64,000 nt of DNA from an uncultured Chitinophaga sp. (GTDB lineage Bacteria > Bacteroidota > Bacteroidia > Chitinophagales > LD1), in contig CAZWAD010000001.1 in assembly GCA_964631835.1 (NCBI GenBank), positions 114,216-178,215 on the forward strand, written 5' to 3'. The stretch's first letter is position 1. Every line of letters starts with the position of its first letter. Below are positions 16,961 to 57,006 of this stretch, piece by piece. The notes under the pieces are model-generated. The model saw only the letters and a list, made by a program, of their open reading frames with translations. It had not been told where the DNA came from and ran no database searches. A program made the position numbers and the translations under genes.

Positions 16961-17009
16961 AATGCCCATGATATTCATTTTCTGCAGGTGATTTTGAATC
17001 ATGGGCATT
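16961..17009. repeat. hairpin repeat, AATGCYCATGAT family (copy 1)
   Basis: AATGCCCATGAT (16961..16972) is the perfect reverse complement of ATCATGGGCATT (16998..17009). Confidence 0.85.
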
Positions 17010-17483
17010 TCATGGTTTAGTTATGGTTATAGTTATTTGAATAAAACCCGATGCCTTTTGAATGATAATGGATGTTTTATGAATGACTTAAGATGTTTGT
17101 TTGTTAACTTCAGATAAGCGTTAAAGCTATTTTACTTACTACTAAATTAAAAAAACATTCGATTGAATCACCAGATACCTTCATTGAATTGATATAACAC
17201 CTCATTGAACTATACCGAAACACCTTTGAATAAAACTACACCCTTAGTTTTGATGATTCAATCACACTAATTGGTGATTCAATCACATATTTTGATGATT
17301 CTATTTAATACTTTGATGATTTAATCTCACTTTTTGGTGATTTTATCACACAATTTGATGACTCTATATCATCAAATTTTTATTCAGTAAATATAAAAAG
17401 TTATTCAATCCCATCTTTTGATTATTCAATCCCATCTATTGGTTATTCAATCCCACATTTTGATGATTCTATCACATCAAAAT
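16995..17483. repeat. array of roughly 20 motifs phased at exactly 21 bp (TTTGA / TGATTCAATCA cores), iteron- or operator-like
   Basis: Core starts are at 17254, 17275, 17296, 17317, 17338, 17359, 17380, 17401, 17422, 17443 and 17464. ATTGAA-type cores are at 17162, 17183, 17204 and 17225. TGAAT-type cores are at 17038, 17059 and 17080. No ORF covers the region. Confidence 0.85.
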
Positions 17484-17556
17484 GCAGTTCAACTAAGGTT
17501 TGGAACAGTTCAAGACGGGTGAGGGGGTTTTCAGTCCTAAAGGCCAAAGCCAGAGT

Positions 17557-17594
17557 GCTATTTGCGCAGGGTTAGGGAGGTTTGTTATTTTTAG
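17557..17594 (+). repeat. copy B of the boundary repeat (38 nt)
   Basis: GCTATTTGCGCAGGGTTAGGGAGGTTTGTTATTTTTAG matches copy C at 37 of 38 positions. Confidence 0.9.
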
Positions 17595-17620
17595 AAAGGG
17601 AAAGGAAAGTAGAAAATAGA

Positions 17621-18100
17621 TGTCATTGCGATTGCGAGCAGAGCGAAGCAACCTTATCTGCGACCGAAGCAAACTTCAACTTTGTTTTTATTTCCTTTCG
17701 ATACTCGATGGCGAATGCTACCAACGTAGGTTTAATAAGCACTGAATACTTTGTTTACATCTTAACAAACAAAGGGAATAATGTTCTTTATACAGGCGTT
17801 ACAAGTGATTTGCAAAACCGGTGCGAAGAGCATATCCATAAAAAACATCCGAATAGTTTTACAGCAAGATACAACGTAAACAAATTAGTTTACTATGAAC
17901 GATTTGGCAGTATTGAAGATGCTATTGCAAGAGAAAAGCAAATTAAAGGCGGAAGCAGGCAAAAGAAAATTGATTTGATTGTAAAAATGAATCCGTTCTG
18001 GAATGATTTATACGAAACAAAAATTATTAACTGGAATACAGAATAACAAAGTGGAAGGTTGCTTCGTCAGCGTGCAAAGCCACGCTTCCTCGCAATGACA
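17621..18100 (+). mobile_element. GIY-YIG cassette bounded by imperfect inverted repeats
   Basis: TGTCATTGCGA (17621..17631) pairs with TCGCAATGACA (18090..18100). CGAAGCAACCTT (17644..17655) pairs with AAGGTTGCTTCG (18055..18066). Confidence 0.7.
17708..18046 (+). CDS. GIY-YIG nuclease family protein
   Basis: Start moved to MANATNV at 17708. Motifs are YFVYILTNKGNNVLYTGVTSDL (GIY..YxG), R..EH and E..IKG.SR.KK. Confidence 0.85.
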   Translation: MANATNVGLISTEYFVYILTNKGNNVLYTGVTSDLQNRCEEHIHKKHPNSFTARYNVNKLVYYERFGSIEDAIAREKQIKGGSRQKKIDLIVKMNPFWNDLYETKIINWNTE

Positions 18101-18120
18101 AATCTAATCGCACAATCGCG

Positions 18121-18158
18121 GCTATTTGCGCAGGGTTGGGGAGGTTTGTTATTTTTAG
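18121..18158 (+). repeat. copy C of the boundary repeat (38 nt)
   Basis: Direct repeat of 17557..17594, lying 564 bp downstream of it. Confidence 0.9.
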
Positions 18159-18191
18159 ACTTCAAATTGGATTCAAAGAACCCAATAATCT

Positions 18192-20325: not shown

Positions 20326-20357
20326 TAAAGTCCCCTTTAGGGGATTTAGGGGTTTTA
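20326..20357. repeat. TCCCCTTTAGGGGATTTAGGGG palindromic repeat in the cysD-cysN spacer
   Basis: TCCCCT/AGGGGA hairpin. Related to CTCCCTTTAGGGAGTTAGTGGGTTGGGG at 53631..53658. Confidence 0.75.
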
Positions 20358-48902: not shown

Positions 48903-48974
48903 AAACCCCATTTGCAAAAATGTTTCCCCGAATTGCTTGACAAATGACGCGGGGCGTTTATATTAGCGTCATGA

Positions 48975-49019
48975 AATGCTCATGATTCAAAATCATGAAA
49001 AACGAAAATCATGAGCATT
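48975..49019. repeat. hairpin repeat, AATGCYCATGAT family (copy 2)
   Basis: AATGCTCATGATT (48975..48987) is the perfect reverse complement of AATCATGAGCATT (49007..49019). A third AATCATGA sits in the loop. Confidence 0.85.
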
Positions 49020-49050: not shown

Positions 49051-49116
49051 ATGAAAATTATCATTTCAACCGGTTGGTGGCATGCTGAAAAAACAGCGGG
49101 CTGCGCAATGCGTTGA
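49051..49116 (+). CDS. putative trp leader peptide MKIIISTGWWHAEKTAGCAMR
   Basis: A 21-codon ORF with tandem TGG TGG at 49075..49080. It is followed by a terminator and then trpE. Confidence 0.65.
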   Translation: MKIIISTGWWHAEKTAGCAMR

Positions 49117-49138
49117 AATGATTGATTATATTTTTTCG

Positions 49139-49173
49139 AAAGCCCGTTGTAGTAACAATGGGCTTTTTCTTTT
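49139..49173 (+). terminator. intrinsic terminator (attenuator) upstream of trpE
   Basis: Stem AAAGCCCGTTG / CAATGGGCTTT with a 6-nt loop, then TTCTTTT. Confidence 0.8.
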
Positions 49174-49186
49174 ACGCTGAAACGAA

Positions 49187-50575
49187 ATGAGATATACCAC
49201 ACATACTTTTCAAATGCTTGCCGATACACACACGCCCGTGGGTATTTACCTGAAGCTGCGCGATGTGTTTCATCAAACGCTGCTGCTGGAAAGCTCCGAT
49301 TATCATGCGGCAGAAAACAGTTTTTCGTTTATCTGCTGCCATGCCGTGGCATCTGTAAAAGTGCTGGAGGGTGCCGTGGAAATTGACGGATACAAAACCG
49401 GCAAGCAGACTGTTTCGTTTGAGCAGAAGCCGCTGTTTGAATCGTTTCAGCAGTTCAGCGATTCGTTTACCGAAACAAACGGCAAGGCCACTATTGCCAA
49501 CGGGCTGTTTGGTTATGTAAGCAGCGATGCGGTGCAGCACTTCGATAATTTTTCGTTCAGGAATGAAGACCGCGAAATTCCTTCGGTGTGGTTTACGTTT
49601 TACCGTTTTGTCATCGCGTTCAACCATTTTAAAGACGAGCTGGTTATTTACGAAAACGTGCCGGAGGGCGAAACTGGCGAAACGGAAAAAATAATTACGC
49701 TCATCCGCAATAAGAACATGGCGGTGTATCCGTTTGAAACCGCGGGCGAAGAAAAAACCAATGTGACCGACCCGGAATTTATTTCGATGATTGAACGCGC
49801 CATAGGGCATTGTTACCGTGGCGATGTTTTTCAGCTGGTGCTGTCGCGCAGGTTTATGCAAAAATTTACGGGCGATGATATGAATGTGTATCGCACGCTG
49901 CGCTCGATAAATCCTTCGCCCTACCTGTTTTATTTCGATTACGGCAACTTCCGGATTTTTGGTTCTTCGCCCGAAGCGCAGCTGGTGGTGAAGGGCAACA
50001 AAGCGAAAATCAATCCCATTGCAGGAACTTTTAAGCGCACCGGTGATGATGAGCAGGATAAAATGCTGGCGGAAAAACTGGCGAAGGATGAAAAAGAAAA
50101 TGCCGAGCATGTGATGCTGGTGGATTTGGCGCGCAACGATTTATCGAAGCATTGCAGCGCGGTGGAGGTGAAGCATTACAAGCAGATTCATTTTTACTCG
50201 CACGTGATTCATTTGGTGAGCGAAGTGATGGGAACGCTCGATGGCAAACACAATGCTTTGCAGTTACTGGCAGATTCGTTTCCTGCGGGCACACTTTCGG
50301 GTGCGCCCAAGCACGAAGCGATTGAGCTGATTCGCAAATACGAAAATATGCTGCGCGGATTTTATGGCGGGTGTATCGGCTTTATCGGTTTCAATGGCGA
50401 TATCAATACTGCTATTACCATCCGCTCGTTTTTGAGCAAGAACAACACGCTGCATTACCAGGCGGGCGCGGGAGTGGTGGCGGCATCGAATCCGCAAAGC
50501 GAGCTGGAGGAAGTTCACAACAAGCTGCGCGCCTTACGCACAGCCATTGAGCAGGCAAAACAAATGAGTGTATGA
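49187..50575 (+). CDS. trpE: anthranilate synthase component I
   Basis: LLESS, SPE..L, GAPK and a chorismate-binding C-half. Confidence 0.95.
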   Translation: MRYTTHTFQMLADTHTPVGIYLKLRDVFHQTLLLESSDYHAAENSFSFICCHAVASVKVLEGAVEIDGYKTGKQTVSFEQKPLFESFQQFSDSFTETNGKATIANGLFGYVSSDAVQHFDNFSFRNEDREIPSVWFTFYRFVIAFNHFKDELVIYENVPEGETGETEKIITLIRNKNMAVYPFETAGEEKTNVTDPEFISMIERAIGHCYRGDVFQLVLSRRFMQKFTGDDMNVYRTLRSINPSPYLFYFDYGNFRIFGSSPEAQLVVKGNKAKINPIAGTFKRTGDDEQDKMLAEKLAKDEKENAEHVMLVDLARNDLSKHCSAVEVKHYKQIHFYSHVIHLVSEVMGTLDGKHNALQLLADSFPAGTLSGAPKHEAIELIRKYENMLRGFYGGCIGFIGFNGDINTAITIRSFLSKNNTLHYQAGAGVVAASNPQSELEEVHNKLRALRTAIEQAKQMSV

Positions 50576-51144
50576 TGAAGAAGATATTAGTGATAGACAA
50601 TTACGATTCGTTTACTTACAACTTAGTGTATCTGCTGAGGCAGTTTGAAGATGTAACGGTAGATGTGGTGCGGAATGATTTTGTGGAAATGGAAGCGGTG
50701 AAGAATTACGACAAGCTTTTGTTTTCACCGGGACCTGGAATTCCCGAAGAAGCGGGGCTGATGTGCGAGGTGATAAAAGAATATGCTGGAAAGAAATCTA
50801 TGCTCGGTGTTTGTCTTGGTCATCAGGCAATTGGAGAAGTGTTTGGCTCGAAGCTTAAAAATTTGACAAAAGTTTTTCACGGAATAGCAACAGATATTTT
50901 CGTGAAGGATTCAAATGGAGTTTTTAAAGATGTTCCGAAAACTTTTAAAGCGGGCAGGTATCACTCCTGGGTGATTGATGAAAATAATTTGTCGGATGAT
51001 TTGGAAGTAACGGCTACGGATGAGAACAACCTCATTATGGCAGTGGCGCATAAAAAATATGATATACAGGGCGTTCAGTTTCACCCAGAATCAATTTTGA
51101 CCGAGCATTCAGTAACGATGATGAGCAACTGGATAAATAAATAG
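50572..51144 (+). CDS. trpG: anthranilate synthase component II (glutamine amidotransferase)
   Basis: ATGA overlap with trpE. GVCLGHQ and VQFHPES triad motifs. Confidence 0.95.
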   Translation: MMKKILVIDNYDSFTYNLVYLLRQFEDVTVDVVRNDFVEMEAVKNYDKLLFSPGPGIPEEAGLMCEVIKEYAGKKSMLGVCLGHQAIGEVFGSKLKNLTKVFHGIATDIFVKDSNGVFKDVPKTFKAGRYHSWVIDENNLSDDLEVTATDENNLIMAVAHKKYDIQGVQFHPESILTEHSVTMMSNWINK

Positions 51145-51145
51145 G

Positions 51146-52129
51146 ATGAAGGCGATACTCAACAACTTAATAGAACTGCAAACGCTCTCACGCAAAGAGG
51201 CGTACGAGTTGATGAAAAACATCGGCACGGGTGCTTTCAACGAAGCACACATTGCCGCGCTGCTCACCGTGCTGATGATGCGCCCGCTTACGCTTGATGA
51301 GCTACATGGTTTTCGTGAAGCACTTTTGGAATTGTGTGTTCCGTTTAATGCAGATGAAGAAACTATAGACTTATGCGGCACGGGGGGCGATGGAAAAAAC
51401 ACGTTTAATATTTCTACGCTTTCTTCGATTGTAGTTGCTGCCTGCGGATATAAAGTAACCAAGCACGGTAACTACGGAGTATCTAGCGCCAGCGGCTCAT
51501 CGAATGTGATGGAGTATTATAGTTACAAATTCACCAACGATGAAAGTGTTTTGAAGAAGCAGTTGGATGCCTGCAACATTTGTTTCTTGCATGCACCTTT
51601 ATTTCACCTTGCGCTAAAGCATGTTGCCAACGTTCGCAAGCAGATGGGCATCAAAACTTTCTTCAATATGCTGGGGCCTTTGGTAAATCCTGCACAACCT
51701 GCTTACCGCCTAACAGGTGTTTTCAATTTAGAGTTGGCGCGCTTGTATCATTATCTTTTACAACAAGACCCCGGCAGCTATAAAGTGCTGCACGATTTGA
51801 ATGGCTACGATGAAATTTCTCTCACCGGTTTAGTGAAGGTTTATTCTAAAGAAGGCGAACAAGTTTTCAGTCCGGAAGATTTAGGCTTCAAACAAAAACA
51901 AGCCAGCGAACTTTTTGGAGGAGATACAGTAAAAGAAGCCGCAGAGATTTTCATGAGTGTATTGGAAAACAAAAGCACTGCCACGCAGCAGGAAGTGGTA
52001 ATTGCTAATGCAGCAACTGCTATTCAAACAATAGAGCCAGAACTTTCATTTACTGATTGTGCTGCAAAAGCGAAAGAAGCAATCATATCAGGCAACGCAT
52101 TAAAGACATTTAAATCGCTTGTGGCATGA
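51146..52129 (+). CDS. trpD: anthranilate phosphoribosyltransferase
   Basis: DLCGTGGDG..TFNIST and KHGN motifs. Confidence 0.95.
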   Translation: MKAILNNLIELQTLSRKEAYELMKNIGTGAFNEAHIAALLTVLMMRPLTLDELHGFREALLELCVPFNADEETIDLCGTGGDGKNTFNISTLSSIVVAACGYKVTKHGNYGVSSASGSSNVMEYYSYKFTNDESVLKKQLDACNICFLHAPLFHLALKHVANVRKQMGIKTFFNMLGPLVNPAQPAYRLTGVFNLELARLYHYLLQQDPGSYKVLHDLNGYDEISLTGLVKVYSKEGEQVFSPEDLGFKQKQASELFGGDTVKEAAEIFMSVLENKSTATQQEVVIANAATAIQTIEPELSFTDCAAKAKEAIISGNALKTFKSLVA

Positions 52130-52917
52130 ATTACTTAGATGAGATAATCGCTCATAAACGGAAAGAGCTAGAAGTAAGAAAGCTACTTCGTACGGTTAGT
52201 CAGTTGGAGAATGATGTTTTATTTAAACGGGCAACTACTTCGCTGAAAGATATCCTCAGTCAAAAAAATAATAGTGGCATCATCGCAGAATTTAAACGCG
52301 CATCTCCGAGTAAGGGGTTTATAAACAAGTATGCAGAAGTAAAAAAAACAACTACCGGTTATATTAAGGCAGGTGCATCCGCTCTGTCTGTTCTTACGGA
52401 TGAAAAATATTTTGGAGGCACTGCAAAAGATTTAACCGAAGCGCGACAAGTAAATGCCTGCCCTATCCTCCGAAAAGACTTTACCGTTGACGAATACCAA
52501 ATCATTGAAGCAAAATCTATCGGTGCGGATGTTATTCTTTTGATAGCCGCGGTGTTGAGCAAAAAAGAAATCAAATCACTTACTGATGTTGCTGTGTCTT
52601 TGGGCTTAGAAGTGTTATTGGAAATTCACGAAGCAGAGGAATTGGACAAAGCCGATGTATCACAACACCTTATCGGCATCAACAACCGCAACCTGAAAAC
52701 CTTTGAAGTAAATCTGGAGCACAGTATTCAATTGGCGGAGCAACTTCCCAAAGGCGTTGTAAAAATTGCCGAGAGTGGAATAAGTCAGCCCGAAAATATT
52801 TTGCTGCTGAAGCAACATGGTTTCAATGGTTTTTTGATTGGAGGGAATTTTATGAAAGAAGCGCAACCCGAAATTGCTTGCAAAAAATTTATTGATAGTC
52901 TTTCTGTCTTGGTATGA
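52126..52917 (+). CDS. trpC: indole-3-glycerol phosphate synthase
   Basis: IAEFKRASPSKG, LRKDF and GINNRNL motifs. Overlaps trpD by 4 bp. Confidence 0.95.
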   Translation: MNYLDEIIAHKRKELEVRKLLRTVSQLENDVLFKRATTSLKDILSQKNNSGIIAEFKRASPSKGFINKYAEVKKTTTGYIKAGASALSVLTDEKYFGGTAKDLTEARQVNACPILRKDFTVDEYQIIEAKSIGADVILLIAAVLSKKEIKSLTDVAVSLGLEVLLEIHEAEELDKADVSQHLIGINNRNLKTFEVNLEHSIQLAEQLPKGVVKIAESGISQPENILLLKQHGFNGFLIGGNFMKEAQPEIACKKFIDSLSVLV

Positions 52918-53537
52918 AAACAAAAATCTGCGGCTTAAGGGAAAAACAGAATATTGCGGATTTAGCGAAGCTAAATCCGCAGTGGATGGGCTTCATCTTT
53001 GCTCCAGCTTCTCCGCGCTATTTCAATTCGGCAAAAGAACCCGCAGATTTAAGATCAATTCCCTCTTCCATTAACAAAGTCGGAGTGTTCGTGAACGAAA
53101 CATCAGAGAAGGTGAAAGAAACAATTCAGCAACACAACTTAAACGCCATTCAACTCCACGGCAACGAAACTCCCGAATACTGTGCATCGCTTCAATCACC
53201 CGGCATTGAAATCATCAAAGCATTCAGCGTGGATGATGACTTTGATTTCAGCATCACCGAATCCTATTCTCCTTTCGTAGATTATTTCCTATTCGATACC
53301 AAAGGCAAACAAGCAGGCGGCAACGGAATCGCCTTCAACTGGAATATCCTAAACGGCAAACGTTTTGCGAAACCGTTTTTATTGAGCGGAGGCATTTCAC
53401 CCGAACATGCAGAGGCAATAAAGCAATTCACTCATCCCGATTGCATCGGCATCGACATCAATAGCCGCTTCGAAATTTCTCCCGGCCTGAAAGATGTTGC
53501 GGCTATTCGTTTATTCTTACAACAAATTCAGTCATGA
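52914..53537 (+). CDS. trpF: phosphoribosylanthranilate isomerase
   Basis: KICG, QLHG.E and LSGG motifs. Overlaps trpC by 4 bp. Confidence 0.93.
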   Translation: MKTKICGLREKQNIADLAKLNPQWMGFIFAPASPRYFNSAKEPADLRSIPSSINKVGVFVNETSEKVKETIQQHNLNAIQLHGNETPEYCASLQSPGIEIIKAFSVDDDFDFSITESYSPFVDYFLFDTKGKQAGGNGIAFNWNILNGKRFAKPFLLSGGISPEHAEAIKQFTHPDCIGIDINSRFEISPGLKDVAAIRLFLQQIQS

Positions 53538-53548
53538 GTTACACCAAA

Positions 53549-53671
53549 GCATTCATTGCCGCGCAGACCCCTGCCCCTAAAGGGGTAAGGCAACGCAGAA
53601 AAAACATAGCTTGTATTTTGCGTAGCGGTTCTCCCTTTAGGGAGTTAGTGGGTTGGGGGTCTATTCTAAAC
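53549..53671. repeat. palindromic repeat element inserted between trpF and trpB, flanked by 26-bp direct repeats (53523..53548 and 53672..53697)
   Basis: The direct repeats are CAAATTCAGTCATGAGTTACACCAAA and CAAATTCAACCATGAGTTACACCAAA. The insert has AGACCCC...GGGGTCT ends and internal CCCCTAAAGGGG and CTCCCTTTAGGGAG hairpins. Confidence 0.85.
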
Positions 53672-53682
53672 CAAATTCAACC

Positions 53683-54858
53683 ATGAGTTACACCAAAACC
53701 AAAAACGGCTTTTACGGAGAATTTGGCGGAGCCTTCATCCCCGAAATGCTCCACGCCAATGTCGAAGAGCTGCAGCAGAATTACGAGCGCATTATCGAAC
53801 AACCTGATTTCAAAAAAGAAATGGAGCAACTTCTGCGCGATTATGTGGGCCGTCCTACTCCGCTCTTTTTTGCTGAACGCCTTTCGCAGCATTACGGCAC
53901 CAACATTTATTTAAAGCGCGAAGATCTTTGCCACACGGGAGCGCATAAAATCAATAACACCATCGGGCAGATTCTGCTGGCGCAGCGCCTCGGCAAAAAA
54001 CGAATCATTGCCGAAACCGGTGCAGGGCAACACGGAGTGGCTACCGCCACCGTCTGCGCCCTCAAAGGTTTGGAGTGCATTGTTTACATGGGGCAGAAAG
54101 ACACCGAGCGCCAGGCGCCCAATGTGGCGCGTATGAAAATGCTGGGTGCCAAAGTGGTGCCCGTTACCAGCGGTAACATGACCCTCAAAGATGCCACCAA
54201 CGAAGCCATCCGCGACTGGATCAACCATCCCGATGAAACACACTACATCATCGGCTCGGTGGTCGGTCCTCATCCTTATCCCGAAATGGTGGCGCGCTTT
54301 CAATCTGTCATCAGTGCCGAAATGCAAACACAGCTGCACGAAAAAACCAACCGCAATCACCCCGACTATGTGCTGGCATGTGTGGGCGGAGGCAGCAATG
54401 CAGCAGGCGCTTTCTATCATTTTCTCGATGACGAAAAAGTAAAACTCATTGCCGTAGAAGCCGCGGGCAAAGGTCTTGAGAGTGGTCACTCAGCCGCTAC
54501 TACTTACCTCGGCAAAAAAGGAATTATTCACGGCAGCATGACCCTGCTCATGCAAACCGCTGACGGACAAATCGAAGAACCCTATTCGCTTTCTGCGGGG
54601 CTCGATTACCCCGGCATTGGTCCGCTGCATGCGCATTTGTTCCAAAGCGGGCGCGCGCAGTTTAAGTATGTAACCGATGACAAAGCTTTGCAAGCCGCCT
54701 TCTTCCTCGCCAAAAACGAAGGCATTATCTGCGCCCTCGAAACCGCTCATGCACTGGCCGCTTTAGAGCAAGTCAATTTCCGCAAAACCAATGTGGTGGT
54801 CATCTGCCTCTCGGGCCGTGGCGACAAAGATTTAGAAGCGTACATGAAGCATTTGTAG
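53683..54858 (+). CDS. trpB: tryptophan synthase beta chain
   Basis: Start moved to [16 protein letters not shown] at 53683. [12 protein letters not shown] lysine and GGGSNA motifs. Confidence 0.96.
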
Positions 54859-54920
54859 AAAAAGAATTGGTGCCTGTCCCGAACTTGTTTCGGGAGCGCG
54901 TCCCGCACAAAGCAGCGGGT

Positions 54921-55060
54921 CGGGCTTTACGCTACAATCTTTTTTGCTGCTGCATTTTGTCCCCCTCTGCATAGCCTGTGTTTAGCTGAGGGGGTGCCCG
55001 TTTCGGGCGGGGGAGGTTTTTTCATCCGCAGCAAAAAAGGATTTCCGCTTCAATCCCTCG
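54921..55060. repeat. composite palindromic element downstream of trpB
   Basis: The imperfect arms share a perfect core, TTTTTTGCTGC (54940..54950) against GCAGCAAAAAA (55028..55038). Inner hairpins are CCCCCTC...GAGGGGG and GCCCG-TTT-CGGGC. Confidence 0.7.
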
Positions 55061-55107
55061 CGCAAACAGCCGCCTTTCACTCACAAGTTTGCCCTTGCGA
55101 GGTCGGC

Positions 55108-55136
55108 TCTGCGACCGAAGCAAACTTCCACTTTGT
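55108..55136 (+). repeat. solo copy of the left-end sequence of the GIY-YIG cassette
   Basis: TCTGCGACCGAAGCAAACTTCCACTTTGT matches 17657..17685 at 28 of 29 positions. Confidence 0.85.
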
Positions 55137-55195
55137 ATTTTTGTATTCGCTCCATCGGAGCAATCTGTTTGTAGAAAATACATAATTGCCCCTCC

Positions 55196-55764
55196 GCGCA
55201 CCGTAGGTGCCGCCTTATTTCCCTCTTCAAAACGCCTTCGTTATTTTCACGCGTAAATTATTCACCATGCCAAACACATATACTCAACTCTACATTCAAA
55301 TTGTATTTGCTGTGCAAGGCAGACAAAACCTAATTCCCAAACAACACAAAGAAGAACTGCATAGATACATTACCGGTATAGTTCAGAAACGAAATCATAA
55401 AATGATTGCCATAAATTCAATGCCTGACCACGCGCATATTTTTGTCGGATTAAAACCCACGCAATCCATTTCAGATTTAGTGCGCGACATCAAAACCAAT
55501 TCTTCTTCATTTATTACAGAGAAAAAATTTGTACGCGGTAAATTTAATTGGCAGGAAGGTTTCGGAGCATTCTCTTATTCGCATTCGCAAATTGATGCCG
55601 TTGTCAAATACATACTAAATCAGGAAGAACATCATTGCAACAAAACTTTTCGTGAGGAATACATCGGCTTCCTCAAAAAATTTGAGGTTGAATACGATGG
55701 GAAATACTTGTTTGACTGGATTGGGTGATTCTGTCAAATGCAACAGGCGGCACCTACGGTGCGC
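55196..55764 (+). mobile_element. IS200/RAYT-like unit: Y1 transposase gene bracketed by a perfect 20-bp inverted repeat
   Basis: GCGCACCGTAGGTGCCGCCT (55196..55215) is the exact reverse complement of AGGCGGCACCTACGGTGCGC (55745..55764). Confidence 0.85.
55267..55728 (+). CDS. IS200-like / REP-associated tyrosine (Y1, HUH) transposase
   Basis: Start moved to MPNTYTQLYIQIVF at 55267. HUH motif PDHAHIFVG and Tyr motif YILNQEEHH. Confidence 0.85.
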   Translation: MPNTYTQLYIQIVFAVQGRQNLIPKQHKEELHRYITGIVQKRNHKMIAINSMPDHAHIFVGLKPTQSISDLVRDIKTNSSSFITEKKFVRGKFNWQEGFGAFSYSHSQIDAVVKYILNQEEHHCNKTFREEYIGFLKKFEVEYDGKYLFDWIG

Positions 55765-55923
55765 CCCCAAAACGCTTCTTTATCTATACTGCAAACAGAA
55801 AACTCCTAACGGAGTAAGATAAAAACTGGTTGAGCATGGCCAGGCTAATCGCGTAGTGCGCTTTTTTTTGTTTAGCGTAACGAAATAAATTTTAGCCAAT
55901 TTCTTCCCGGCCTTGATCTTTTG

Positions 55924-55949
55924 GTTCTTTTGCATCAAGGCAAAAGAAC
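55924..55949. repeat. hairpin repeat, CTTTTGGTTCYTTT family (copy 1)
   Basis: GTTCTTTTGC-ATCAAG-GCAAAAGAAC, a perfect 10-bp stem. Confidence 0.85.
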
Positions 55950-56039
55950 AAACGCTATTCAACAACCACCCTTCCCAACAAAAGCACTGCCTTTCGAGCA
56001 GAGCCTGTCCGTTTCACGCGGAGCGATTGAAATGCTCAT

Positions 56040-56082
56040 GGTTCCATTATGTTTAAAAATGAGCATGAGCATTCAATGTGTC
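56040..56082. repeat. hairpin repeat, AATGCYCATGAT family (copy 3)
   Basis: AATGCTCATG (56040..56049) is the reverse complement of CATGAGCATT (56073..56082). Confidence 0.8.
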
Positions 56083-56126
56083 CTTTTAAAATCTAACGAG
56101 TTCACATTAAACGTACGATTCTTTTG

Positions 56127-56153
56127 GTTCCTTTTCTTCTAAAGAAAAGGAAC
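56127..56153. repeat. hairpin repeat, CTTTTGGTTCYTTT family (copy 2)
   Basis: GTTCCTTTTCTT-CTA-AAGAAAAGGAAC, a perfect 12-bp stem. It shares the 5' flank GATYCTTTTGGTTC with copy 1. Confidence 0.85.
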
Positions 56154-56240
56154 AAGAAAAACACTTTCAATCAAAAACATCAATTCGGCTAAAGCCAACG
56201 GCAAAACAAAAATCCCTCTCCCGCGAGGTAAAGCCCATTT

Positions 56241-56470
56241 CTGCCGCCCCATATTTAACATCTGCCGCCCCATAATTCCCTTCCGCCTTGCCGTAACCAG
56301 TTTCTGCCTCGTCATAATTAACATCTTCCTCACCATAAAATGTTCCCGCCCTTCCATAATTGCTCTCCGCCCTCTCATATTCAATCTCCGCCTTCCCATA
56401 TCGGGTCTTCGCTTTCCCCTAATCTCCCTGCGCCTGTCCTTATCCTTTCCCCGCCTCTCCCTTTCCAAGT
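56241..56470. repeat. degenerate tandem repeat, about 11 units of 20-21 bp (consensus near CTSCGCCYYCCATAATTNNNT)
   Basis: Units were read by hand, for example CTGCCGCCCCATATTTAACAT, CTGCCGCCCCATAATTCCCTT, CTCCGCCCTCTCATATTCAAT and CTCCGCCTTCCCATATCGGGT. Confidence 0.8.
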
Positions 56471-56526
56471 TCCCACATCTTTAACTTCTCTGCCCTTTTC
56501 TCCACTTTGCCCCTCTCAAAAACGAA

Positions 56527-56739
56527 ATGAGCCGCATAGTCACCCTCTTTAAAACCAAACACGGCAACATCGTTTCGGTATATTCCGCACCCGGCTTTCC
56601 GAACCTGAACGATACACCGCGCTGGCTCAAAAATGCTTCATCGGGTGTATCAAGAGAAGATGAATGCCAACAAAAAATCGCATACACATATCGTAAATGG
56701 CAACACTCATTTCGATTATTCCAATTTAAACCGCGATAA
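56527..56739 (+). pseudogene. trpA: truncated tryptophan synthase alpha chain (only about the first 40 codons are TrpA-like)
   Basis: MSRIVTLFKTKHGNIVSVYSAPGFPNLNDTPRWLKNASSGV fits the TrpA N-terminal pattern (RI..LF..K..N.LS.Y.TAG.PNLNDT......SGV). The downstream sequence lacks the IE.G.PFSDP motif. The ORF stops after 70 codons. Confidence 0.7.
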
Positions 56740-57006
56740 AAAGCAAATGCTTAATTCCAAAATTCTCACCTTCCGCAGAAAGTGCAAACCCACGGGCATA
56801 TTGCTGGGCGACTGTATTAACGAAGCCGAACAACTGACTGCTGCCGCATTAGAAAAAGAAATGAAGGAGATGGAACGGAAGAAGAAAGATTTTCTGCGGA
56901 AATCAGATTAAAGCAGGCGCTTAATTTTCAATACCGCATCACTTTGGAAAAAGAACCACTTTCACCCCGAGCCCCCAAAGGGCAGGTGCATTTTCAGCGG
57001 GCAAAA

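What the first reader, a model, noticed from the sequence alone, without database searches (positions are those of the whole stretch)
54859..56740. trp operon is broken after trpB: 1.67 kb of RAYT and repeats, then only a roughly 40-codon trpA stub
trpE-G-D-C-F-B are intact and mostly ATGA-coupled, but trpB (stop at 54858) is not followed by trpA. The intervening stretch holds a composite palindrome, a Y1 transposase unit, three hairpin-repeat families and a 21-bp tandem array.

The ORF at 56527 then begins MSRIVTLFKTKHGNIVSVYSAPGFPNLNDTPRWLKNASSGV. This matches the TrpA N-terminal pattern as I recall it (RI..LF..K..N.LS.Y.TAG.PNLNDT ... SGV). From about 56650 the sequence diverges. No IE.G.PFSDP.ADGP motif and no GFGIS loop appears in any frame I translated, and the ORF stops at 56739.

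An overlapping 92-codon ORF (56633..56911) is unrecognisable. Either trpA was truncated by insertion of the island that runs to about 59.75 kb, or a second trpA exists elsewhere. Without TrpA, indole-3-glycerol phosphate cannot be cleaved to indole, so the remaining intact and attenuator-controlled operon would be puzzling.
Basis: partly seen in the sequence, partly recalled or inferred. Interest (0 to 1): 0.7.

Follow-up and report, generated by a model that had tools for sequence, protein, structure and literature searches.

The report
Decayed trpA stub; intact copy elsewhere
The 35-codon trpA fragment after trpB is a real, decaying leftover of the gene at its old position, but an intact trpA almost certainly sits elsewhere on the same contig, so this is an ordinary gene relic and not a broken pathway.

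Summary
trpB ends at 54858, 1,668 bp follow, and the ORF at 56527 starts with a genuine TrpA N-terminus. Only TrpA profile positions 1-36 survive, and no other TrpA remnant exists in the 64 kb window.

The reading needs correction in four places.
1. The spacer is only partly foreign. The hairpins and Flavo-1 RNA motif (54859-55068) are native trpB 3' flank. The palindrome, 21-bp array and 5' leader (about 56016-56526) are native trpA upstream sequence, orthologous to a relative with intact trpA-hisH. The foreign part is about 55069-56015: a GIY-YIG-element end, a RAYT-like Y1 transposase unit and hairpins.
2. The "unrecognisable" 92-codon ORF is a small conserved gene missing its first ~18 codons. 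The junction 56631|56632 therefore joins two truncated genes. That indicates deletion or illegitimate recombination, not an island splitting trpA.
3. The stub evolves nearly neutrally (omega about 0.87).
4. A full-length TrpA (P0007) and the window's exact TrpB (P0121) are each recorded once, NCBI only, on a contig of 515,170 bp. A working trpA very probably lies elsewhere on the source contig.

Verdict: an ordinary pseudogene relic in a variable spacer.

The parts
49051..49175 (+). Candidate trp leader peptide (49051-49116, MKIIISTGWWHAEKTAGCAMR, tandem Trp codons) followed by a terminator-like hairpin with a T-run (about 49140-49175), upstream of trpE. Context only.
   Evidence: Sequence and ORF list. 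Not tested further.
49187..53537 (+). trpE (49187-50575), trpG (50572-51144), trpD (51146-52129), trpC (52126-52917) and trpF (52914-53537). All are full length. E/G, D/C and C/F overlap by ATGA.
   Evidence: ORFs. Pfam Chorismate_bind and PRAI. 80-89% DNA identity to L001 and L082 across the operon.
53683..54858 (+). trpB, intact, 391 aa. Identical to database protein P0121.
   Evidence: TIGR00263 587.7 bits. P0121 is 100% identical and sits on one NCBI contig of 515,170 bp. omega = 0.08 against L082.
54859..54913 (+). Native hairpin-rich 3' flank of trpB.
   Evidence: DNA homology with relatives L083 and L084 runs through the trpB stop to 54924. Fold result.
54914..55068 (-). Flavo-1 RNA motif with a 78-nt hairpin insertion in its terminal loop. 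It is native, because a Flavo-1 copy sits at the same place after trpB in L002 and L082.
   Evidence: RF01705 scores 57.2 bits against gathering score 42. L002 1239-1315 scores 64.5 bits and L082 5610-5700 scores 42.2 bits, both on the minus strand just after trpB.
55096..55150 (+). Solo copy of the terminal repeat of the GIY-YIG element that lies at 17.56-18.16 kb in this window.
   Evidence: 94% identity to 17657-17689, and 88% complementary to 18034-18066.
55196..55764 (+). RAYT-like Y1 (HUH) transposase unit. It consists of perfect 20-nt inverted repeats (55196-55215 and 55745-55764), each containing a GCACC-3 nt-GGTGC hairpin, around a 153-aa gene (55267-55728).
   Evidence: Pfam Y1_Tnp E = 1.7e-25. 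NCBIfam IS200 69 bits (cutoff 55); REP_Tyr_transpos 35.8 bits (cutoff 80). Inverted repeats. A 55%-identical homologue flanked by REP clusters lies in L069.
55765..56015 (.). Hairpin-rich spacer of unknown origin. No homologue was found in any fetched locus.
   Evidence: Fold z = -3.4. No blastn hits.
56016..56503 (+). Native upstream region of trpA. It holds a palindrome (56119-56161) and a pyrimidine-rich 21-bp repeat array (about 56226-56440), plus a window-specific hairpin insertion of about 78 nt (about 56033-56111).
   Evidence: Orthologous to L085 1-548, which lies upstream of an intact trpA-hisH. The two differ by 42- and 63-bp (21n) indels in the array and a 35-bp indel before it. Tandem repeats.
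56504..56631 (+). trpA relic: 23 nt of conserved 5' leader plus codons 1-35 (56527-56631).
   Evidence: omega = 0.87 against L085, compared with 0.19-0.32 for intact pairs over the same codons. Near-invariant L16, T21 and A22 are replaced by V, A and P.
56631..56632 (.). Breakpoint. trpA codon 35 is joined, in a different frame but the same orientation, to about codon 19 of another gene.
   Evidence: Homology to trpA ends at 56631. Homology to the P0241 family begins at 56633.
56633..56911 (+). 5'-truncated copy of a small (about 93-121 aa) conserved protein of unknown function, missing about 18 N-terminal codons.
   Evidence: phmmer against 1.84 billion representatives: P0241 (110 aa) 71% identity, query 1-89 aligned to 19-107, E = 1.6e-34; P0243, P0244 and P0245 are weaker. 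tblastn and blastn to L086. No Pfam or PHROG family.

Best explanation
What it is. Window 56504-56631 is a non-functional, neutrally decaying 5' relic of trpA, left at the gene's ancestral position downstream of trpB.

How the locus is built. In this Bacteroidota (Chitinophagales-like) clade, trpB and trpA are separated by a variable spacer. On the left the spacer is bounded by native trpB 3' hairpins and a Flavo-1 motif. On the right it is bounded by a native palindrome, a 21-bp array and the trpA leader. In this genome the spacer picked up a GIY-YIG-element end and a RAYT-like Y1 transposase unit.

What cut the gene. Separately, a deletion or illegitimate recombination event joined trpA codon 35 to about codon 19 of an unrelated small gene. 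That removed the rest of trpA and whatever followed it (hisH-A-F-IE in relatives).

Why it was tolerated. The event was tolerated because an intact trpA (protein P0007) exists elsewhere on the same 515-kb contig. Tryptophan synthesis therefore remains complete, and the intact, leader-peptide-controlled trpEGDCFB operon is not paradoxical.

Shown versus inferred.
- Shown: relic identity, the breakpoint, truncation of both joined genes, native versus foreign parts of the spacer, and near-neutral substitution in the stub.
- Inferred: that P0007 is on the same contig, that the trpA region was duplicated before the deletion, and the order of events.
For: Relic identity.

Only TrpA profile positions 1-36 are present anywhere in the window.

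Orthology of 56016-56631 with the region upstream of, and the first 35 codons of, an intact trpA-hisH locus (L085).

Flavo-1 at the same post-trpB position in L002 and L082.

Relaxed constraint.
- Stub against L085: dS 0.23, dN 0.20, omega 0.87.
- Intact trpA pairs over the same 35 codons: omega 0.19-0.32. Full-length trpA pairs: 0.12-0.14.
- The stub's dS matches trpB dS of 0.29 for window against L082, as expected for orthologous position.
- Three near-invariant residues are lost.

The junction partner is a 5'-truncated member of a conserved small-protein family.

Intact second copy.
- P0121 is the window's TrpB at 100% identity. P0007 is a 258-aa TrpA carrying IEIG, SDPLADG and GFGIS.
- Both are singletons, NCBI only, each on one contig of exactly 515,170 bp.
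- P0007 is 90% identical to P0005. P0005 is the TrpA found in the same sample (ERR3200804) as the TrpB that is 95% identical to the window's.

Precedent in relatives.
- L081 has mfd-trpA-hisH-hisA-hisF-hisIE with no trpB within 9.4 kb.
- L002 has a 2-kb EcoO109I-type restriction-modification insert between trpB and trpA.
- 10 of 78 informative relatives have no trpA within at least 1.1 kb after trpB.
Against: - I could not read its DNA, because the source contig is not retrievable.
- A relic coexisting with an intact copy needs a prior duplication or re-acquisition, for which I have no direct evidence.
- No independent assembly of the junction was found.
- The omega estimate rests on only 35 codons.
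- L082 (trpB) and L085 (trpA) come from one sample but could not be joined, so the 'spacer' model is proven at both ends only in L002 and in the window.
Confidence: 0.8

Rival explanations
1. The only trpA of this organism was destroyed. The bacterium would be a tryptophan auxotroph, or would make Trp from scavenged indole with TrpB alone, and the rest of the operon is on its way to decay.
For: No other TrpA sequence exists in the 64 kb window. The stub lacks all catalytic motifs. I could not read the rest of the genome.
Against: P0007, a complete TrpA, is recorded on a single NCBI contig of exactly the same length (515,170 bp) as the contig carrying the window's TrpB. trpEGDCFB are all full length, and trpB is under strong purifying selection (omega 0.08). 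Relatives with detached trpA keep it intact elsewhere.
Confidence: 0.07
2. Assembly chimera. The join at 56631|56632 is a mis-assembly, and the real genome has a contiguous trpA here.
For: No independent assembly contains the junction. The region is rich in repeats and hairpins.
Against: No repeat is shared across the junction. The 35 codons before the break already carry pseudogene-type changes (omega 0.87; T21A, A22P, L16V), which a functional allele would not have. They also differ from the presumed functional copy P0007 at 13 of 35 residues, so the stub is a separate, diverged sequence.
Confidence: 0.05
3. Simple insertion. A discrete island (56.6 to about 59.75 kb) inserted into trpA and split it.
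For: Genes to the right (TerB-like 117 aa, a 179-aa protein, a WYL/WCX regulator, a 65-aa ORF) have no counterpart near trpB in 80 relatives. GC content dips to 0.34-0.40 at 57.1-57.7 kb.
Against: No 3' part of trpA resumes at 59.75 kb or anywhere up to 64 kb. No integrase or tRNA lies nearby, and no long repeat (24 nt or more) links the two proposed island edges. The first gene after the break is itself truncated at its 5' end.
Confidence: 0.03
4. The 70-codon ORF is functional, for example as a new small protein or a translated leader regulating downstream genes.
For: The ORF is open, keeps its ATG and keeps 22 of 23 nt of the conserved leader.
Against: omega is about 0.87. The ORF shares no words with any of 5.8 billion database proteins, so it is not even recorded as a called gene. 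Its second half is out-of-frame read-through of another gene.
Confidence: 0.03

Closest known systems
Gene remnants (pseudogene stubs) at deletion or rearrangement junctions in bacterial genomes
   Same: A short 5' fragment of a housekeeping gene retains its leader and start codon and evolves neutrally. It is fused out of frame to another truncated gene.
   Different: Nothing unusual. The only particular point is that the relic marks the ancestral trpB-trpA linkage in a clade where that linkage is being lost.
Inactivated trpA in Chlamydia trachomatis ocular strains (trpRBA operon; PMC6302012, PMC8262981)
   Same: trpA is mutationally inactivated next to a retained trpB.
   Different: In Chlamydia the mutated gene is the only copy, the upstream pathway is absent, and the loss has a phenotype (no indole rescue). 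Here the full trpEGDCFB operon is intact and a second, complete trpA very probably exists.
Split or dispersed trp operons
   Same: trpA is detached from trpEGDCFB and linked to other genes. In L081 the order is mfd-trpA-hisHAF-IE.
   Different: This window preserves a molecular fossil of the former linkage. Such fossils are usually erased.
REP-associated tyrosine transposases (RAYTs) and REP/REPIN elements (PMC2817692, PMC3116915, PMC5581495)
   Same: A Y1 HUH transposase gene flanked by two palindrome-containing repeats in inverted orientation. The L069 homologue sits inside REP clusters.
   Different: The protein has YILNQEEHH instead of the RAYT NP(L/V)(R/K)xG motif. It scores below the NCBIfam RAYT cutoff and above the IS200 cutoff. 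No further REP copies occur in the 64 kb window.
Flavo-1 RNA motif (RF01705; Weinberg et al. 2010, PMC2864571; PMC9723704)
   Same: Matches the covariance model above the gathering score. As reported for Flavobacterium, orientation relative to transcripts is not consistent; here it is antisense to trpB.
   Different: This copy carries a 78-nt nested hairpin in its loop and is syntenically conserved after trpB in three species.

Membership tests
Tryptophan synthase alpha chain (TrpA, PF00290) | Sequence homology to the family | tested here: met
   Residues 1-35 only. E = 4e-8 to L002 TrpA. A clade HMM matches positions 1-36 with E = 4e-5. BLASTP to P0007: 22/35 identical, E = 5e-13. Pfam's own model gives no hit.
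Tryptophan synthase alpha chain (TrpA, PF00290) | Catalytic Glu49 and Asp60 (the IE.G and SDPLADGP motifs; established knowledge from the Salmonella and E. coli enzyme) | tested here: not met
   The alignment with 10 TrpA sequences shows the stub diverging before these motifs. No frame in the window contains them.
Tryptophan synthase alpha chain (TrpA, PF00290) | Complete (beta/alpha)8 barrel of about 255-265 aa with the GFGIS phosphate-binding loop | tested here: not met
   Only 35 homologous codons are present. Profile positions 37 to the end are absent from all six frames of the window.
Tryptophan synthase alpha chain (TrpA, PF00290) | Purifying selection typical of the functional gene | tested here: not met
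   omega is 0.87 for the stub, against 0.12-0.32 for intact genes. The sample is small (35 codons).
RAYT (REP-associated tyrosine transposase) | Y1_Tnp (PF01797) fold with HUH motif and catalytic Tyr | tested here: met
   Pfam E = 1.7e-25. HAH (in DHAHIFV) and Y (in KYILNQ) are visible in the translation.
RAYT (REP-associated tyrosine transposase) | [quoted passage not shown] | tested here: met
   Perfect 20-nt inverted repeats at 55196-55215 and 55745-55764, each with a 5-bp-stem hairpin.
RAYT (REP-associated tyrosine transposase) | RAYT-specific NP(L/V)(R/K)xG motif next to the catalytic Tyr (PMC2817692), or the family model score | tested here: not met
   The sequence reads YILNQEEHH. NCBIfam REP_Tyr_transpos scores 35.8 bits against cutoff 80; transpos_IS200 scores 69.1 bits against cutoff 55.
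RAYT (REP-associated tyrosine transposase) | Cognate REPs abundant and dispersed in the genome; transposase single copy | not testable with these tools
   No further copies occur in the 64 kb window. The rest of the genome is not available.
Flavo-1 RNA (RF01705) | Covariance-model score at or above the Rfam gathering threshold | tested here: met
   57.2 bits against 42, with full model coverage 1-76 and a 78-nt loop insertion.

The most novel reading that the evidence does not exclude
The trpB-trpA spacer of this Bacteroidota clade may be a dedicated integration hotspot for selfish and defence-type cargo. A syntenically conserved Flavo-1 element bounds the left edge and a 21-bp repeat array bounds the right edge.

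Every close relative examined carries something different after trpB.
- L002: an EcoO109I-type restriction-modification system.
- L082: a DUF5677 gene.
- A JGI contig: a Fic gene.
- L001: PPR-repeat proteins.
- This window: a RAYT-like unit and a GIY-YIG-element end.

Flavo-1 or the array would act as the recombination or insertion target. That would give the function-less Flavo-1 motif a role, and the trpA truncation would be collateral damage of this traffic.
Probability: 0.15. Interest if true: 0.45.

Novelty: new member of a known kind. Interest (0 to 1): 0.2.

Why it matters
The practical value lies in annotation and metabolic inference. A pipeline that looks only at the operon would score this genome as lacking tryptophan synthase alpha and predict Trp auxotrophy or indole dependence. 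The evidence says the gene has moved and left a fossil behind.

The relic also dates and locates the loss of trpB-trpA linkage in this clade. It shows that the spacer between the two genes turns over quickly among close relatives.

Nothing here changes what is known about tryptophan synthase, Y1 transposases or Flavo-1.

Tried and rejected
- Pfam, NCBIfam and a PDB sequence search with the 70-aa ORF gave no TrpA hit. The stub is too short and too decayed for generic models. Clade-specific comparison was needed.
- Exact-protein look-ups of the window's TrpB, its TrpC and P0007 to fetch the source contig all returned 'not on record'. I therefore could not read the intact trpA locus.
- A word-index protein search with the stub ORF found no candidates at all.
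- An exact 24-mer across the junction has no match in JGI metagenomes.
- Relatives of P0007 in JGI metagenomes reach at most 63% identity and were uninformative.
- I tried to join contigs L082 (trpB) and L085 (trpA), both from sample ERR3200804, by end overlap. They do not overlap.
- I looked for the genes to the right of the break (orf117, orf179, WYL, MFS and others) near trpB in 80 relatives and found none. The ancestral right flank is unknown.
- A small tandem duplication as the origin of the junction is rejected for segments up to about 56 kb, because the window contains no second copy of the right-flank genes.
- PHROGs found nothing informative for the right-flank proteins. A PADLOC call failed on a coordinate error and was not repeated, because it does not bear on the question.
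- A minus-strand ORF through the 21-bp array is considered but not adopted as a gene. The heptad xYGxAEx frame is open in both the window and L085, but the window's frame was not listed as an ORF of at least 40 aa.
Full report
**1. Observation**

trpE, G, D, C, F and B are all full length (49187-54858). The E/G, D/C and C/F pairs overlap by ATGA. trpB (53683-54858) stops at 54858. A 1,668-bp spacer follows, then ORF 56527-56739 (70 codons) and the overlapping ORF 56633-56911 (92 codons).

**2. Is the stub TrpA?**

Generic models say nothing: Pfam, NCBIfam and a PDB search found no match. I fetched 80 loci around TrpB relatives.

- The TrpA of L002, whose TrpB is 89% identical to the window's, matches 56527-56631 at 63% identity over residues 1-35. 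E = 4e-8 against the window.
- The stub hits the TrpA N-terminus in 11 loci.
- In an alignment with ten TrpA sequences, the stub follows the family to about residue 40 and then diverges. The break comes before the IE.G and SDPLADGP motifs.
- An HMM built from 68 TrpA sequences, run with all filters off against every open stretch of at least 12 aa in the six frames of the window, hits only this place. It matches profile positions 1-36 with E = 4e-5; the next hit has E = 1.2.

The stub is therefore real, and nothing else of trpA lies within the window. The window reaches 7.4 kb to the right and 56 kb to the left of the stub.

**3. What the 1.67 kb spacer is made of**

Left, native:
- Homology with L083 and L084 runs through the trpB stop to 54924.
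- 54914-55068 on the minus strand is a Flavo-1 RNA motif (RF01705, 57.2 bits against gathering score 42) with a 78-nt insertion in its loop.
- L002 and L082 carry a Flavo-1 copy at the same position and orientation just after trpB.
- Flavo-1 is a computationally defined Bacteroidota motif with no known function. In Flavobacterium it is found sense, antisense and outside transcripts (PMC2864571, PMC9723704).

Middle, foreign or unknown:
- 55096-55150 resembles both terminal repeats of a GIY-YIG element at 17.56-18.16 kb in the same window.
- 55196-55764 is a Y1 transposase unit. A 153-aa gene (55267-55728; Pfam Y1_Tnp E = 1.7e-25) lies between perfect 20-nt inverted repeats that each contain a hairpin.
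- That unit works like a RAYT, because it is flanked by inverted palindromic repeats as defined in PMC2817692. It fails the RAYT motif and the NCBIfam RAYT cutoff, and it scores as IS200-like.
- A 55%-identical homologue in L069 sits inside REP clusters between trpF and trpB.
- 55765-56015 is hairpin-rich and of unknown origin.

Right, native:
- Window 56016-56631 is orthologous to L085 1-676. L085 is a Logan contig from run ERR3200804 that carries an intact trpA (P0005) followed by hisH.
- Mean column identity is 83%, including the gap columns. The gaps are 42 and 63 bp (multiples of 21) inside the array and a 35-bp indel before it.
- The palindrome 56119-56161 and the 21-bp array are therefore the normal upstream region of trpA in this clade, not debris.
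- The 23 nt before the ATG are 22/23 identical to L081 and L085.

**4. The break**

Homology to trpA ends at 56631 in every comparison. The 92-codon ORF that starts at 56633 is not unrecognisable.

- A phmmer search of 1.84 billion representative proteins finds a small family of 93-121 aa proteins.
- The best hit is P0241 (110 aa), 71% identical, with query residues 1-89 aligned to residues 19-107.
- The window copy lacks the first ~18 codons, and nothing upstream of 56633 resembles them.
- The family has no Pfam or PHROG annotation.

The junction 56631|56632 therefore joins two truncated genes, in the same orientation but different frames. That is the signature of a deletion or other illegitimate recombination. 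It is not the edge of an element inserted into trpA.

Consistent with this:
- No 3' trpA resumes at about 59.75 kb or anywhere else in the window.
- None of the genes to the right is linked to trpB in the 80 relatives. These genes are a 117-aa ORF, a 179-aa ORF, a WYL/WCX regulator and an MFS transporter.

**5. State of the stub** (Nei-Gojobori)

| Comparison | dS | dN | omega |
|---|---|---|---|
| Stub vs L085 trpA, codons 1-35 | 0.23 | 0.20 | 0.87 |
| Intact trpA pairs, same 35 codons | | | 0.19-0.32 |
| Intact trpA pairs, full length | | | 0.12-0.14 |
| trpB, window vs L082 | 0.29 | | 0.08 |

- The stub's synonymous distance equals the species distance. This fits a copy sitting at the orthologous position.
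- Its non-synonymous rate is close to neutral.
- Near-invariant L16, T21 and A22 have become V, A and P.
- With 35 codons this is indicative, not conclusive.

**6. Is the pathway broken?**

Searching the 5.8-billion-protein collection gave two matching records.

- With the window's TrpB, the search returns P0121: 100% identical, NCBI only, one contig, longest contig 515,170 bp.
- With L002's TrpA, the search returns P0007: 258 aa, NCBI only, one contig, longest contig 515,170 bp. An exact look-up confirmed both records.
- P0007 has IEIG, SDPLADG and GFGIS.
- P0007 is 90% identical to P0005. P0005 is the TrpA from the same sample that holds the TrpB (P0125) 95% identical to the window's.
- Other contig lengths in these two lists range from about 700 to about 6.2 million bp.

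Two singleton NCBI proteins of the same narrow clade on contigs of identical length are, for practical purposes, on the same contig. I could not read that contig: three look-ups returned 'not on record'. The link is therefore strong inference, not observation. The stub differs from P0007 at 13 of 35 residues, so it is a separate, diverged copy and not a mis-assembled piece of the working gene.

**7. Context in relatives**

- trpA directly follows trpB in 68 of 80 loci. Ten of the other twelve have 1.1-10 kb of downstream sequence without trpA.
- L081, whose TrpA (P0002) is 88% identical to L002's, has mfd-trpA-hisH-hisA-hisF-hisIE-FKBP and no trpB within 9.4 kb.
- L002 keeps trpB and trpA together but has an EcoO109I-type endonuclease and methylase between them, followed by DAHP synthase and the his genes.

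| Relative | TrpB identity to window | What follows trpB |
|---|---|---|
| L082 | 95% | DUF5677 gene |
| JGI contig | 95% | Fic gene |
| L001 | 91% | PPR-repeat proteins |

The DNA after trpB is different in every close relative. Detachment or interruption of trpA is common in this clade.

**8. Mechanism, and what remains inferred**

The most economical history has three steps.
1. Ancestral order: trpB, Flavo-1, variable spacer, array, trpA, hisH and onward.
2. In the window's lineage, the trpA(-his) region came to exist in two places.
3. The copy at the old site was cut down by a deletion running from trpA codon 36 into the small gene, and the stub has drifted since.

The RAYT-like unit and the GIY-YIG end are separate insertions in the spacer. 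They are about 870 bp or more from the break, and nothing ties them to it. I have no evidence for the duplication step itself.

Alternatives are scored in the report sections. They are loss of the only copy, an assembly chimera, a clean island insertion, and a functional fused ORF.

**9. Verdict**

The truncation is real. The 'broken operon' reading is most likely wrong, because an intact trpA lies elsewhere on the contig. The 'island insertion' mechanism is not supported. This is an ordinary pseudogene relic in a fast-turning-over intergenic spacer.

Interest is low. The one open thread is whether the Flavo-1- and array-bounded trpB-trpA spacer is a true integration hotspot.

Noticed in passing
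window 53549-53671 (with duplicated junction 53518-53548 and 53667-53697): A 123-nt hairpin-bearing insertion sits exactly in the trpF/trpB ATGA overlap. The 26-31-nt junction is duplicated on both sides (87% identical), so trpF keeps its stop and trpB keeps its start. Relatives L001, L082, L083 and L084 have the uninterrupted overlap. The result is a 145-nt trpF-trpB gap and loss of translational coupling.
   Followed up: partly
window 54914-55068 (-); L002 1239-1315 (-); L082 5610-5700 (-): A Flavo-1 RNA motif copy is syntenically conserved just downstream of trpB, antisense to it, in three species. The window copy has a 78-nt nested hairpin in its terminal loop.
   Followed up: partly
window 17557-18159: A compact GIY-YIG nuclease element. 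The gene lies within ORF 17582-18046. It has inverted terminal repeats (about 17620-17690 and 18034-18105) and 39-nt direct repeats at both outer edges (17557-17595 and 18121-18159, 97% identical). A 75%-identical element lies next to the full-length small gene P0241 in L086 (10801-11149).
   Followed up: partly
window 17248-17493: A second array with a 21-bp period, unrelated to the one upstream of trpA. It has about 9-11 AT-rich units of the TTGATGATTCAATCAC type with inverted copies at 17145-17189. It lies just upstream of the GIY-YIG element and looks like iterons or a binding-site array.
   Followed up: no
window about 56226-56440 (-) and L085 113-373 (-): On the minus strand, the 21-bp array upstream of trpA reads as heptad repeats (xYGxAEx) ending in AEMG.T.R.RDFCFAVGFS. 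The frame is open in both the window and L085, and an 86-aa gene was called in L085. The window's frame was not listed as an ORF of at least 40 aa. Whether it codes for anything is unclear.
   Followed up: partly
L002 1438-3046; L082 3096-3732 and 5717-6643; JGI 3300050046 contig; L001 11191-13499; L069 8942-9970: The trp operon of this clade is peppered with different selfish or accessory modules. These are an EcoO109I-type restriction-modification system between trpB and trpA (L002), an MNT/HepT toxin-antitoxin pair between trpC and trpF plus DUF5677 after trpB (L082), Fic after trpB (JGI contig), PPR-repeat proteins after trpB (L001), and a RAYT with REP clusters between trpF and trpB (L069).
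   Followed up: partly
window 49051-49175: Candidate trp leader peptide MKIIISTGWWHAEKTAGCAMR with tandem Trp codons, followed by a terminator-like hairpin and T-run before trpE.
   Followed up: no
window 16989-17014, 48970-48995 and about 56031-56075: A short dispersed hairpin family built on GAAATGCTCATG / CATGAGCAT occurs at three intergenic sites. One is the trp leader region. Another is the window-specific insertion of about 78 nt upstream of the trpA relic.
   Followed up: no
window 20326-20354 and L081 12885-12913: A perfect 29-nt match between an intergenic site in the window and the hisIE/FKBP intergenic site of L081. The surrounding genes are unrelated, so it is possibly another small dispersed repeat or a terminator.
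   Followed up: no
window 56747-56911: Database protein P0242 (54 aa) is 100% identical to the last 54 residues of the truncated small gene. It is presumably a gene call from the source genome. If so, that annotation starts the gene at an internal Met and does not flag the truncation.
   Followed up: no
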